Of a DNA stretch of 64,000 bases, positions 250 to 10,493 are shown in pieces. How positions within the stretch are numbered: the first letter of the stretch is position 1; each line of letters starts with the position of its first letter. A program made the translations under genes and the position numbers. Origin of the DNA: Octopus vulgaris (taxonomy: Eukaryota); assembly GCA_951406725.2 (NCBI GenBank), contig OX597829.1, forward strand, positions 12,338,001 through 12,402,000, written 5' to 3'. The notes beneath the pieces were generated by a model. It was not told where the DNA came from. It ran no database searches and saw only the letters and a program-made list of their open reading frames with translations.

Positions 250-566
250 TGTTCTTTATAAAATTATTTTAGCATTTTCTACCTTGACTTGTTTTTTCAT
301 ATATATATATATATATATATATATATATATATATATATTAGAAATATTAAAATTACTAAGTCTCTCTAAAGGAGATTACGGCAGCGTTACTGGATATTAA
401 TAATTATCGCCATACTAATATGCCAGTCTATAAACATAAGACTTAAGCTGTCACTGATTAGCTCCAAGAGGCCATTGCCTCTAGCTAGCTATATGACACA
501 CGAACTTGCGTCCATTACAACCTTCGAACAGGAGAGGTCAGCCGCTTCACCTTGCTAGTCAGACAT

Positions 567-607
567 CTGCAGACATGTTTCAGGGTTGTTGCCCTTTATC
601 AATGCAG
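567..607 (-). ncRNA. Minimal type-I hammerhead ribozyme (UUGAUAA core, GUC site)
   Basis: Minus strand: ctgca-TTGATAA-AGGG(caacaa)CCCT-GAAA-CATG-TC-tgcag; all stems pair. Confidence 0.85.
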
Positions 608-784
608 CGTAGTCAGAAGCAGCAGGTGTCGCTACTGACCGTCTGTTCGAAGATTTTATTTACCTAGTTACAGTGGAATACATCCACTTGTTTTCAATAA
701 TAGAAATATTAAAATTACTAAGTCTCTCATCATCATCATCTTCGAACATGGGAGGTCAGCCGCTTCACCTTGCTAGTTAGACAT

Positions 785-825
785 CTGCAGACATGTTTCA
801 GGGTTATTGACCTTTATCAATGCAG
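785..825 (-). ncRNA. Second copy of the same hammerhead with one stem II mismatch; a 5'-truncated inverted copy follows at 830-863 (+)
   Basis: ctgca-TTGATAA-AGGT(caataa)CCCT-GAAA-CATG-TC-tgcag. Confidence 0.75.
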
Positions 826-1081
826 CGTAGATAAAGGGCAACAACCCTGAAACATGTCTGCAGATGTCTGACTAGCAAGGTGAAGCGGCTGACCTCCCTG
901 TTCGAAGGTTGTAATGGACGCAGGTTCGTGTGTCATATAGCTAACTAGAGGCGATGGCCTCTTGGAGCTAATCAGCGACAGCTTTAGTCTTATGTTTATA
1001 GACTGCCATATTAGTATGGCGATAGCTATTATTATATATATATATATATATATATATATATATATATATATATATATATAT

Positions 1082-1370
1082 ACATCGATTCTGTACCAAC
1101 ACGCCGAACAGGAACACAGGGGATCAATCAACAACATAGAAGTTAAAATCTGGTCCACACATAGAACAGATGCAACAATCAGACAAATTACAGAAGCTAC
1201 ACACATAATAGAAGATAAACCTAGCCTAAATAGGAAACTGGAATGGAACACTAGCACACACCACAACATATGACAGAAGAGGATCCCCATAAACTAGTTA
1301 CAATATAAACAAAACCGAAAACATTAAAATACACAGATAAATAAACAAATAGAAATAAATAACTTATGTA
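1082..1370 (+). mobile_element. Penelope-like element fragment (C-terminus of GIY-YIG endonuclease plus 3' flank)
   Basis: SILYQHAEQEH...TIRQITEATHIIEDKPSLNRKLEWN resembles the PLE C-terminal RQxxEAxxI...LNxKxEW motif. Confidence 0.6.
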
Positions 1371-1445
1371 AGTTTTTTTTTGTTTAATTTAAAAGATTTT
1401 TTATTTATTATTATTATTAACATTATCATTATTATTATTATTATT

Positions 1446-1816
1446 GAGTGAGAGAGCAGTGCATGCTATCAAAGTGACACTGGGGTAAAATATACGAAGC
1501 CCAATATACCCATCATGACTACCCGTCTGATAAAGGTACACCAGGCACATGCATCACAACCATATGTGCGCGACATGGTGATCTCATATCAAGATAAACA
1601 GCACATGACCTTGCAGGTGGGGCCCAGTTAGAATTTTCTTCAGGTTGAGTAGCCCATCCCGCTCAAAAGGTCTCTGAATAAGGGTTGTTTAAGGATGTTG
1701 AAAGAACCACCCATGTTTTCAGAGGTGAATTATTCAAACCCCAAAGAATCCCCCCAACACATGGCCATGATGCTCCCCCACTACTTCTGCTCGTGATCAG
1801 AGATGCATATATCGTC
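1446..1816 (-). mobile_element. ORF-less (TAA)n-targeting element, 5'-truncated copy
   Basis: Matches the 3' part of 49784-50336; flanked by (ATT)n on both sides. Confidence 0.9.
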
Positions 1817-2514
1817 TATTATTATTATTATTATTATTATTATTATTATTATTATTATTATTATTATTATTATTATTATTATTACTAGTATTATTGTTAT
1901 ACATACATACATACAAGCATACGTAATGATAATAATAATATGTGGATGTAAACACATGAACAAAATAAGAATAAACAAAAACAACAACAAAAACAAATTA
2001 CATGAACGTATATAAATAGAAGTTACAAATATTACAGGCATCCCCCCACTAACTAAACATAGACGCACATAGAGATATAAGCATGCGCAAATGAAGACAT
2101 ACAATAGAAATACAAAATGGCTGACGGTTAGTAAGGAGAGACACAAATAAGAAAGAAGAAAACAAAGGACCACTGATGCGGCCACGGGAGTGTGACGAAA
2201 GAACGCTGGCCGAAATAAGATTAAGATTAATGTAAAAAATAAATAACACTGACGCAAAGGAACACCAAATATATAGTGCGTGTGTTTTTATTGGCAAAAT
2301 GACCATTCCGAAATATAACAATATATATATGTCATACTGTATCTGGAGAAAGTCATTCTGTTTTAATGCCGCATTACTTAACACACTCACCGGTTCAATT
2401 TCCACTCATTTATTTATTTTTTCTAACATTTTTCCAAGACTTTCCATGCTTTTTGCAACCTCTTCAATAGTCGTTGACTCTGTCGGTTAGCAGAGCTGCA
2501 TTCTTTTTGTTTGG

Positions 2515-7509: not shown

Positions 7510-7680
7510 TTTATTCAGTTTACTTCAAGGCGGTTTCTAACCTAGATCCAAGGTTCCTTCATTGGAATTTCAACATCAACAACAGGGTGTTTTTGTTTGT
7601 TTGTATGTATATATGTATGTTTTATGTATGTATTCTCATGTATATAGTTACATATCGAGACATGCTTATATATGTATATA
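7510..7680 (-). mobile_element. R4-like family G 3' UTR/terminus followed by (CATA)n
   Basis: Reverse complement matches 56700-57064 (CCCTGTTG..GATGTTGAAATT..GGATCTAGGTTAGAA..AAACTGAATA). Confidence 0.85.
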
Positions 7681-7708
7681 TGTCAGTACCTCAAATATAA
7701 AATTCTTC

Positions 7709-7793
7709 TTGAAGATGGAGGCTGGTGGTATCCAATGATGGAATTAAGTTGCAAGCATTATTTTGGACCACCAACACCCCAGAAACAGTTGTT
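7709..7793 (+). ncRNA. Degenerate hammerhead motif
   Basis: TTGAAGA, long stem II (TGG..GGTGGT..TCCA / TGGACCACC..CCA), GAAA-CAGTTG-TT; stem I poor. Confidence 0.45.
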
Positions 7794-8521
7794 GGACTCG
7801 TAAAACTCCTATTGAACCCCCTTAATTCCGGATATTATTTCCGTTTTGACTCGGACTTTGCTTATGTGCATACGTATGTACATTTTCTGTATTAGATGTA
7901 TTTAATATTTTTTGTATATCGACATGCCTAACTTGCTTGTCCTTTCATTTACTCCTCTACCTGCTCAAGTTCAAATTACTTTAGCACTTCGAAGTGTATT
8001 CTATATAGAGAATATCTGTCTCTAATCTATAAACTATATCTGTATGTGCGTATTAACTGTGAATTCATATATACATACAAGTACAAACACATACGCACAT
8101 AAACATACACACACATACACACATGTGTATATACGTACGTACAGATATAAATAGAAATAGTGAATTATTCACAATACATATTCATATATATATATATGCG
8201 TGTGTAAACGTACTTCCATATAACGTATATGTATGAATCTCTTTATCTCTGTCTGTCTCCCCCTCTCTCACTATATATATACATATACATATAGATACAC
8301 ACACACACACACACACACACACACACACACACACACACACACACACACACACACACACACACACACACACACACACACATATATATATATATATATATAT
8401 ATATATATATATATATATATATATATTAGAAGAAATGAGATACTCAGAAATCTTGGATGGTTTTATATTTACAGATATTTATTAGTATGGTACATGTTCT
8501 TATAAATCATATATCATATAT

Positions 8522-8558
8522 ATTAGCGCCTTCGTCCACTCTAGTGGAGTCTTCAGAT
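8522..8558 (-). ncRNA. Degenerate hammerhead motif in a probable PLE remnant (~8428-8830)
   Basis: CTGAAGA-CTCCAC(taga)GTGGAC-GAAG-GCGC-TA; stem I weak. Confidence 0.5.
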
Positions 8559-9049
8559 TGAATATATGCGACAATTATTCGGTAGACATGATAAAACTCC
8601 GAGATTCGGATGTCGGGGCAGAGTTTTATCATGGCTACCGAATAATTTTCACATATTCTATTTACAGTTAAATTACTCTTTTTACATAATACCGAGGTCT
8701 CTTTCATTCTTTTGTTGTCTTGCCATTTCTATCAATATATATATATTTATCTTTCTTAAACTAGATATACGAATAATCAGAAATGAGAGTGTGTCGAAAT
8801 GCTTTTTATTGTTCTTCAATCATCTACAATGTAAGGGAGAGTAGAATCGGCCATTTAAACACGCAGTCTCGTCTACTGCCTGATCGGAAGTCCTTTTCCT
8901 GCGGACCAACTCGATAGCAAACCTGCAGTGAAAGTTCCTGTCTACAGTTCATCTGTTATGAGTTCATGAGCAGTGTCCTACATGTAAGTGTATATATATA
9001 TACGTATGTATGTATATATCGTATGTATGAATGTATGTACGTATGTATG

Positions 9050-9385
9050 TATATGTGCAGATTTGTATGTTTTATTTTATGTATATATACTTATGCTTAT
9101 AGTTGCATAACTATACATGCTCATTTATATAAATATAATGAACTTCTGGAAAGTTTTGCAGATTTTTACAGTTCTAGTGTTGGATTGGATAGTCCTCGAA
9201 TTAGCATTCTCCTTTCTGATTCCGAGAAGCTTAATTTCTCAAGAAATACGTGTATAAACCTGAACATGAAACCTGGATAGAGTAAATGCAGATTTCTCAT
9301 TAGTTCAGCGTAGATATTCTTTTCTTCGCTGATCTTCGTTGAGCAGCTAATTTCCACAAGCTTACACTGTTTCTTTTCTCTGTAT
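9050..9385 (-). mobile_element. R4-like family G relative, 3' fragment, 5' junction in (TATG)n
   Basis: EISC..KISEEKNIYAELMRNLHLLYPGFMFRFI matches the ORF end at ~56410-56640. Confidence 0.85.
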
Positions 9386-10070
9386 GAGTGTGTATGTATG
9401 TATGTATGTATGTATGTATGTATGTATGTATGTATGTATGTATGTATGTATGTATGTATGTATGTATGTATCGTATCGTATATATCCTTGCTATTTCAGA
9501 AAACGAAAAGAAAAAAAAACGTTACTGTTTCAGAAAACGAAAAAAAAATAGTCTCACCATTCCATTTCATTTTACATCAACACTGTTTCAGATTAACAAT
9601 AATTCTTTGTTCGGTGCACAAAATCGTAACTCTATACATGTATGATATTTTCGGTCAGAAATATTTTGGAAATAACTGTTGTATGTGGGACTTACACACT
9701 TTCGAAAAATGCTTTAAACCGTTGTACAATTTTCATATCTTGGCATCTGAAGCAGCTGGAGATACTACGATAGTTTGACTAAAAGTACCAGCTATTGCAA
9801 GCAAAATTAAATATTGTAAAAAATGCATTTGGCCAAATTTGGATATACCATAGTTTAACATAATAGCAACGATACATACTTTATATTAAGGATACCATCG
9901 GTTTCATGATAGGAAATACCTCAACAATTACTTAAAACTATCGTATGGAAACATTGGTCTTCAATCTCCAGTTTGGAGCTTTGAGCCCTCATTCTCACTG
10001 TCTTCTTATCCACACACACATACACACATATATATATAGAGAGGGAATATACATACATATATATATATAT

Positions 10071-10493
10071 AATAGTTATCGCCATACTAATATGGCATTC
10101 TTAAAAATAAGAATAAAGCTGTCGCTGATTAGCTCCATGAAGCCATTGCCTCAAGCTAGCTACTTGACACACAAACTGCGTCCGTTATTAAACCTTCGAA
10201 CAGGGGAGGTCAGCCGCTTCAACCTGCTAGTCCAACAGCTACAGACATGTTTCAGGGTTGTTGCCCTTTCTCAATGCAGCCTAGTCAGACCTGCAGGTGT
10301 CGCTACTGACCGTCTCCGTTTCTAAGATTCTATTTACCTAGTTACGGTGGAATACATCCACTTGTTTTCAATAATAGAAATATTAAAATTACTAAGTCTG
10401 TTTAAAAGAGATTACGACAGCGTTTCTGGAAATTAATAGTTATCGCTGTCGTAATCTCTTTTAAAGAGACTTAGTAATTTTAATATTTCTATT
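10071..10493 (-). mobile_element. Second locus of the hammerhead unit: 364-nt circular permutation plus a 50-nt inverted segment, in (TA)n
   Basis: AATAGTTATCGC at 10071 and 10435; 10444-10493 is an inverted copy of ~10373-10422. Confidence 0.85.
10238..10280 (-). ncRNA. Minimal type-I hammerhead (UUGAGAA core, GUC site)
   Basis: gctgca-TTGAGAA-AGGG(caacaa)CCCT-GAAA-CATG-TC-tgtagc; stem I retained with a GU pair. Confidence 0.85.

What the first reader, a model, noticed from the sequence alone, without database searches (positions are those of the whole stretch)
339..10493. A ~363-nt non-coding hammerhead unit present as two different circular permutations (retrozyme-like circRNA candidate)
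Seen: locus 1 begins and ends with TAGAAATATTAAAATTACTAAG (339 and 701; period 362). Locus 2 carries the same unit but begins and ends with AATAGTTATCGC (10071 and 10435; period 364). Each monomer has one intact minus-strand hammerhead and no credible ORF. Differences between the two ribozymes fall at the free position N7 (U vs G) or keep stem I paired (GC to GU, one extra pair), while flanking sequence has diverged more. Established: non-LTR retrozymes are short hammerhead-delimited units that yield circular RNAs and are thought to be mobilised by Penelope-type enzymes. Inference: slightly-more-than-monomer copies with shifted start points are what reverse transcription of a circular or tandem RNA would leave. 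I cannot tell from sequence whether this family has been described.
Basis: partly seen in the sequence, partly recalled or inferred. Interest (0 to 1): 0.85.

Follow-up and report, generated by a model that had tools for sequence, protein, structure and literature searches.

The report
Ribozyme retroelement targeted by a LINE
This is a real 362-base repeat with a predicted self-cutting ribozyme, likely copied around the genome by Penelope-type retrotransposons (a known kind of element), and the new part is that an unrelated LINE retrotransposon lineage repeatedly inserts about 30 bases upstream of the ribozyme in this repeat and five related ones.

Summary
Both loci carry a ~362-nt non-coding unit with a minimal type I hammerhead (U3-A8 core, palindromic helix III) on the minus strand. 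The family has at least 267 genomic copies and fits non-LTR retrozymes. The two 'circular permutations' are not random openings of a circle. Of 136 outer 3' ends, 112 fall at two sites ~59 nt apart, and 33 of 34 inverted pairs with both ends at these sites join one of each. Both window loci carry both ends. This is the known Penelope 'tail' signature, also seen in a Neptune family of this genome. A circular or tandem template is likely, but no circle was shown. No PLE ORF lay upstream of the unit in 82 loci.

New: an L1/Tx1-type LINE and an ORF1-only relative (dN/dS 0.10-0.26 between subfamilies) insert with target-site duplications just upstream of the hammerhead. This holds for 63 of 84 and 12 of 14 3' ends, across six retrozyme families only 41-72% alike at the target. 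One unit-plus-ORF1 compound recurs on four chromosomes, mostly with Penelope-type ends. Verdict: known kind of element, with an apparently undescribed LINE partner.

The parts
339..728 (-). Retrozyme arm, 1.08 monomers; RNA 3' end at site A next to (TA)n
572..602 (-). Minimal type I hammerhead core (U3-A8, stem II AGGG/CCCT, palindromic helix III, GUC); stem I flanks it
621..634 (-). Site at which the ORF1-only LINE inserts in other copies of this unit (14-nt duplication in L095); empty here
339..394 (-). The ~59-nt 'tail' between 3' end sites B and A
740..830 (-). Short extra fragment of the unit; hammerhead 820-790 with a stem II mismatch
822..1035 (+). Inverted 5'-truncated arm ending at site B next to (TA)n
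10065..10446 (-). Retrozyme arm of locus 2, 1.06 monomers; 3' end at site B next to (TA)n
10244..10274 (-). Hammerhead core of locus 2 (N7 = G, 7-pair stem I)
10441..10495 (+). Inverted arm of locus 2 ending at site A next to (TA)n
13760..15345 (+). Broken 5'-truncated Neptune-type PLE (RT end, GIY-YIG region, pLTR); its family is the best candidate for the mobilising enzyme (inferred); limits approximate

Best explanation
The unit is a non-coding, multi-copy repeat with a predicted hammerhead ribozyme (a non-LTR retrozyme), likely copied from a circular or tandem RNA by a Neptune-type Penelope enzyme that likely starts at two fixed sites, and an L1/Tx1-type LINE lineage repeatedly inserts just upstream of its ribozyme. 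Steps: (1) Inferred: copies are transcribed by read-through, and tandem hammerheads cut as dimers through the palindromic helix III, giving ~362-nt monomers that may be ligated. (2) Inferred from genomic ends: the PLE protein nicks (TA)n or (TAA)n and primes reverse transcription at site B or site A, 59 nt apart. (3) Shown: when a head-to-head inverted pair forms, one arm ends at A and the other at B, 5' ends are variable, and copies run through the cleavage site up to 2.6 monomers. (4) Shown: a LINE with APE-RT ORF2 and an ORF1-only relative sit with 14-20 nt duplications so that their 3' ends lie 23-38 nt upstream of the hammerhead core, in six related retrozyme families. (5) Inferred: the ORF1-only element borrows ORF2 in trans, and some unit-plus-ORF1 compounds are then moved whole by the PLE machinery.
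For: 267 exact genomic matches to a 24-mer in the hammerhead, 0 for the reversed control; 2,846 first-look candidates. Ends: A 55, B 57, other 24 of 136; microsatellite flank at 47 of 55 A ends and 43 of 57 B ends; inverted pairs AB 33, AA 1, BB 0, plus 17 with another end; p = 2e-9. An abundant Neptune family (14,617 candidates) has a U3-A8 minimal hammerhead (17 of 30 loci by my scan) and its own two ends ~43 nt apart at (TA)n. One insertion (L305) joins Neptune and unit arms head-to-head without a microsatellite spacer. Across 44 distinct hammerheads downstream of LINE ends, 197 of 220 stem I cells pair (shuffle mean 146, maximum 165) and 28 of 44 helix III stretches are palindromes of seven different sequences. 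LINE ends: 50 at a hammerhead plus 13 nested at the same target, of 84; 10 plus 2 of 14 for the autonomous family; background 176 of 20,000. The target label changes 24 times on the ORF1-only tree (minimum 7), and near-identical copies sit in different families. The same deletion junction occurs on C1, C9, C10 and C15.
Against: No self-cleavage, transcription or circle was shown. No PLE pLTR homologous to the unit was found (30 + 30 + 30 PLE loci), so the partner is not identified; the Neptune links are two single chimeras from two different families (L305, L146), and the far side of L305 is not (TA)n. The hammerhead is not clearly better conserved than the rest of the unit. 21 of 84 ORF1-only ends were not classed as on target (by eye 3 of these are truncated or nested targets and 1 precedes a different hammerhead). 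On-target counts are inflated by co-amplified compounds (clades of 15 and 10 copies). Tx1 assignment rests on domain layout and recall, not on a tree with named references.
Confidence: 0.72

Rival explanations
1. The copies come from linear read-through transcripts of tandem or partial-tandem source loci; no circle is involved and the hammerhead may be incidental to mobilisation.
For: [quoted passage not shown] Only 8 of 142 segments span two cleavage sites. The 2026 preprint found cleavage in 1 of 9 tested dimers.
Against: No array longer than 2.6 monomers was seen in 112 loci. Rare variants are shared between repeats within a locus at 31 of 7,547 sites versus 239 of 652,033 between loci, though a homogeneous tandem source gives the same. 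Compensated stems and palindromes across six families argue that the ribozyme is under selection.
Confidence: 0.3
2. The copies are solo pLTRs of an autonomous PLE that was not sampled.
For: Ends, inversions and (TA)n targets are all PLE-like. In L146 the unit directly follows a Neptune RT ORF.
Against: 0 of 82 loci have a same-sense PLE RT or EN hit within 1.5 kb upstream (30 of them had only 1.5-kb flanks). Where copies exceed one monomer they continue into the unit itself. The L146 ORF breaks off at the start of the endonuclease, and only 1 of 30 loci of that family joins the unit.
Confidence: 0.07
3. The LINE does not target hammerheads; one old insertion per family hitchhiked with the retrozymes.
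For: Co-amplification is real: one deletion junction on four chromosomes and clades confined to one target family.
Against: Duplications match the individual target copy (L139 and L142 differ from each other but match within each locus). Offsets differ between insertions. A 5'-truncated copy has its own duplication (L230). Two LINE families nest at the same site. The unit was hit by at least 5 lineages forced by well-supported branches.
Confidence: 0.1

Closest known systems
Non-LTR retrozymes (Cervera and de la Pena 2020, PMC7229834; Li et al. 2026, 10.64898/2026.07.22.740005)
   Same: Type I hammerhead, 362-nt non-coding monomer (mussel repeats are ~350-390 bp), GC 41%, many copies, co-occurrence with PLEs.
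   Different: Here copies are mostly dispersed sub-monomers to 2.6-mers with head-to-head inversions and two fixed 3' ends. The sections read describe neither fixed ends nor LINE insertions. Expression and circles were shown there and not here.
Penelope-like element pLTRs and the 'tail' (Frangieh et al. 2024, PMC11167929; Craig et al. 2021, PMC8557442; Cervera and de la Pena 2014, PMC4209133)
   Same: Two RT start sites that define an optional tail present at one end, inverted 5'-truncated copies, microsatellite bias, minimal hammerheads including the U3-A8 variant.
   Different: No RT or endonuclease ORF. The tail is ~59 nt rather than 30-40 nt. The unit repeats itself instead of flanking an ORF.
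Target-specific Tx1 LINEs (Kojima 2015, PMC4494074)
   Same: LINEs with preference for other repeats, tandem insertions that sandwich a duplication, and possible co-transcription from the target.
   Different: Targets named in the passages read are piggyBac, Mariner, Harbinger and LTR elements, U2/U5/5S genes, satellites and microsatellites. Here the target is a hammerhead retrozyme, and six families only 41-72% alike are hit at the same relative position.
HAL1 (half-L1) elements (definition read in PMC5753468)
   Same: Non-autonomous L1 relative that encodes only ORF1.
   Different: Invertebrate, zinc-knuckle ORF1 about 25% identical to the autonomous ORF1 found, target-biased, and secondarily carried between retrozyme repeats.

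Membership tests
Non-LTR retrozyme | Type I hammerhead in each monomer | tested here: met
   (pattern and covariation; Rfam gathering threshold not reached)
Non-LTR retrozyme | 150-450 bp monomer, GC under 50%, no ORF | tested here: met
   362 nt, GC 0.41; longest ORF 30 aa
Non-LTR retrozyme | Tandem copies with two hammerheads able to release a monomer | tested here: met
   8 of 142 segments span two cleavage sites; the two window loci do not
Non-LTR retrozyme | Self-cleavage | not testable with these tools
   needs in vitro transcription
Non-LTR retrozyme | Expressed as a circular RNA | not testable with these tools
   only contigs of runs guessed to be RNA were available
pLTR of an autonomous PLE | Routinely flanks an RT plus GIY-YIG ORF | tested here: not met
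   0 of 82 loci; one truncated chimera, L146
PLE-mobilised element | Two 3' ends (tail), inverted 5'-truncated arms, microsatellite targets | tested here: met
   same pattern in a Neptune family
PLE-mobilised element | Sequence shared with the pLTR of a partner | tested here: inconclusive
   none found in three PLE families sampled, 30 loci each; other families exist
Tx1-clade target-specific LINE | ORF2 with APE, RT and zf-RVT; ORF1 with zinc knuckle | tested here: met
   (zf-CCHC 20.2 bits, just under its 20.8 cut-off)
Tx1-clade target-specific LINE | More than 20% of flanks in one repeat type (criterion of PMC4494074) | tested here: met
   63 of 84 and 12 of 14
Tx1-clade target-specific LINE | RT phylogeny with named Tx1 families | not tested
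   no named Tx1 reference among the 47 hits
HAL1-like ORF1-only element | ORF1 without ORF2, own target-site duplications | tested here: met
   no ORF2 hit upstream of any of 84 ends (up to 2.3 kb, 1.5 kb for the first 30); full copies of 1.6-2.1 kb with duplications

The most novel reading that the evidence does not exclude
A three-tier parasitism. A LINE lineage recognises hammerhead retrozymes by position or structure rather than by a fixed sequence, uses the host ribozymes to cut its own transcript out of read-through RNA, and turns a non-coding retrozyme into a 2-2.5 kb protein-coding (RNA-binding ORF1) ribozyme-delimited circle that both LINE and Penelope enzymes can mobilise.
Probability: 0.3. 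Interest if true: 0.82.

Novelty: new variant of a known kind. Interest (0 to 1): 0.55.

Why it matters
The retrozyme itself is a new member of a described class. Two things add value. First, the end statistics give direct genomic evidence that a retrozyme is inserted by Penelope-type priming (two start sites, near-strict A+B pairing), where the papers read argue mainly from co-occurrence and pLTR similarity. Second, a LINE lineage that lands at a fixed position before hammerheads in diverged families was not found in my searches. It makes a clear test of how an APE-type LINE chooses a target whose sequence varies, and of whether a LINE can borrow a ribozyme from its target.

Tried and rejected
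Rfam scan: no match. Whole-window repeat finder: swamped by microsatellites. Random circular permutation: rejected. Pile-up of 5' ends at the cleavage site, expected for a linear cleaved template: 4 of 142, none, though the sample was selected on a 24-mer next to that site. ORF between unit copies as a PLE ORF: rejected, it is a LINE ORF1. Neptune family of L146 as parent: 1 of 30 loci joined, and no remainder of the Neptune on the far side. A second PLE family (L197 type): no hammerhead found within 1.5 kb downstream in 30 loci. RNA evidence: no RNA holder on record was listed; contigs of runs guessed to be RNA cover the unit but cannot show strand, ends or circles. The deep protein search never left the queue, so the range of ORF1 relatives rests. 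Earlier scan findings: none returned. bioRxiv supplements were closed and other supplements were not read; Repbase-type reports that could name these families are not in the library.
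Full report
Observation. The window lies in a 2.8-Gb, microsatellite-rich animal genome. It is probably an octopod: the only homologue of one ORF is from Octopus bimaculoides and one LINE hit is from Argonauta; this is inference. Both loci are as described, with terminal repeats of 28 and 13 nt, 88% identity and minus-strand minimal type I hammerheads. 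The core has U3-A8 in place of C3-G8, a variant described for PLE hammerheads (PMC4209133, passages). Helix III is the palindrome ACATGT, the arrangement that paper links to cleavage as a dimer. There is no ORF over 30 aa. The ribozyme is not clearly more conserved than its flanks between the two loci (40 of 43 versus 284 of 316). Each locus also has an inverted arm. Locus 1 starts at one site (A, ~339) and its inverted arm ends at the other (B, equivalent to ~394); locus 2 is the reverse.

Family and ends. An exact 24-mer in the hammerhead has 267 matches. I analysed 82 loci drawn from the first 100 listed matches (contigs C1-C7); 12 matches already seen among the best hits were left out, which slightly depletes long A-ended copies. 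Of 136 outer 3' ends, 55 lie at A, 57 at B and 24 elsewhere; A and B together cover 21 of 362 positions. Most A and B ends abut (TA)n or (TAA)n (47 of 55, 43 of 57). Of 51 head-to-head pairs, 33 are A+B, 1 is A+A, none is B+B, and 17 involve another end (p = 2e-9 for the 34). 5' ends are scattered. 39 of 142 segments exceed one monomer, 97 span the cleavage site and 8 span it twice; the longest seen is 2.6 monomers. Frangieh et al. (PMC11167929, text parts 1-2 of 4) show that a PLE starts reverse transcription at two internal sites and that the sequence between them is the genomic 'tail'. Craig et al. (PMC8557442, passages) describe the tail at one end, inverted 5'-truncated copies and microsatellite bias. 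The two 'permutations' are therefore best read as a 59-nt PLE tail. A circular or tandem template is still needed for copies longer than a monomer. Rare variants are shared between repeats of one locus at 31 of 7,547 sites versus 239 of 652,033 between loci (50 segments from both locus sets), which fits a circle or a homogeneous tandem source equally.

Partner. No same-sense PLE ORF lies within 1.5 kb upstream of the unit in 82 loci. A very abundant Neptune-type family, with a broken copy at window ~13.8-15.3 kb, has a U3-A8 hammerhead and two 3' ends ~43 nt apart at (TA)n. Its pLTR is not similar to the unit. One of 30 loci (L305) is a direct head-to-head chimera of Neptune and unit arms, and L146 joins the unit to a truncated RT of another Neptune family. 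Neptune is the likely mobiliser; the family is not fixed. The clade name rests on recalled motifs (DKG motif, zinc finger before GIY-YIG) as described in PMC8557442.

The LINE. Two of the 82-locus set's sites (L095, and L057/L058 refetched as L114) carry 1.7-2.1 kb inserts between unit copies. The insert encodes a ~440-aa protein with a CCHC knuckle; it has no Pfam hit, one homologue and atlas neighbours of the zf-CCHC/ZCCHC3 type (a lead only). A pattern for its 3' end gives 84 genomic matches, all retrieved. By script, 50 lie 23-38 nt upstream of a hammerhead core, 13 lie upstream of another LINE copy at the same target, and 21 are other. The same relaxed pattern is met at 176 of 20,000 random window positions. 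A full-length LINE with APE, RT and zf-RVT domains uses the same kind of site: 10 plus 2 of 14 ends. It nests with the ORF1-only element, the duplication appearing three times in L155/L198. The targets fall into six families 41-72% alike over ~120 nt (a seventh cluster is one truncated copy). Their hammerheads show compensated stems and varied palindromes. Duplications of 14-20 nt occur on and off target. On a tree of 83 of the 84 ends (one too short) the target label changes 24 times against a minimum of 7 and a shuffled mean of 52, so there is both clustering and repeated switching (several long branches are truncated copies). No ORF2 lies upstream of these ends. dN/dS over the first ~235 codons of eight open copies is 0.10-0.26 between subfamilies and 0.45-0.51 within the youngest. 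The ORF1 is ~25% identical to the autonomous ORF1, and the two 3' UTRs end in a similar motif. This is a HAL1-like element (definition in PMC5753468, passages). One deletion junction between unit and insert recurs on four chromosomes. Three of these four insertions have A or B outer ends and one also has an inversion, so compounds were likely moved whole by the PLE route.

Literature. Non-LTR retrozymes and their link to PLEs are published (PMC7229834, part 2 and sections 14 and 17 plus passages; bioRxiv 10.64898/2026.07.22.740005, parts 1-3 of 5). Tx1 elements that prefer other transposons are published (PMC4494074, passages and section 15). Searches for octopus or cephalopod retrozymes and for Tx1 or other LINEs inserting in Penelope or retrozyme sequence listed no paper on either; for most hits I saw the listing only. 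Supplements and Repbase reports were not seen.

Verdict. The finding is real and belongs to a known class, and its headline inference needs correcting. The end statistics and the hammerhead-directed LINE are the parts worth following up. Cleavage, expression and circularity remain untested. Interest 0.55.

Noticed in passing
window 203-251 (+): A separate minimal hammerhead (TTGAAAA core, 8-pair stem I) that ends at the same (TA)n as locus 1; a Neptune-type endonuclease lies ~1.3 kb upstream, outside the window (L113 6587-6898), so it is probably that element's pLTR.
   Followed up: partly
window 21001-21476 (+): Broken fragment of a LINE ORF1, 41% identical over 68 aa to the autonomous ORF1 found here.
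   Followed up: partly
window 25.8-45 kb, and 5.4-7.1 kb, 15.8-16.6 kb, 53-56.7 kb: Dense nest of LINE copies (RT at 42304-44082, Pfam RVT_1) inserted in (AAT)n-type microsatellites, including a 2.6-kb (ATA)n at 46294-48907; looks like microsatellite-targeting R4/NeSL-type elements (recalled, not tested).
   Followed up: no
window 17655-18530 (-): Fragment of another PLE family with a GIY-YIG-like region.
   Followed up: no
L145 2945-8663; L146/L195; L147 3328-7418; L154 3878-9551: Arrays of two to four LINE copies stacked at one retrozyme target; the L146/L195 array is interrupted by an LTR retrotransposon.
   Followed up: partly
L205, L249, L203, L221, L208, L241 (downstream of LINE ends): Five further retrozyme families with core variants CCGATGA, CCGACGA, CTGATGA and TTGACGA; U4C and U3-G8 variants could be tested for activity.
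   Followed up: partly
L150 6133-7255; L157 5915; L029: Other hammerhead families with long stem II, one in tandem with period 533.
   Followed up: no
unit positions 181-200 (window ~519-538): 5' truncation and inversion points are enriched near a TTCGAA palindrome (18 of 142 5' ends in that 20-nt bin), and in 261-280 (19 of 142).
   Followed up: no
search results: Two PLE families with 14,617 and 12,577 first-look candidates; the second has many copies with identical scores and open frames up to 717 aa, suggesting recent activity.
   Followed up: no
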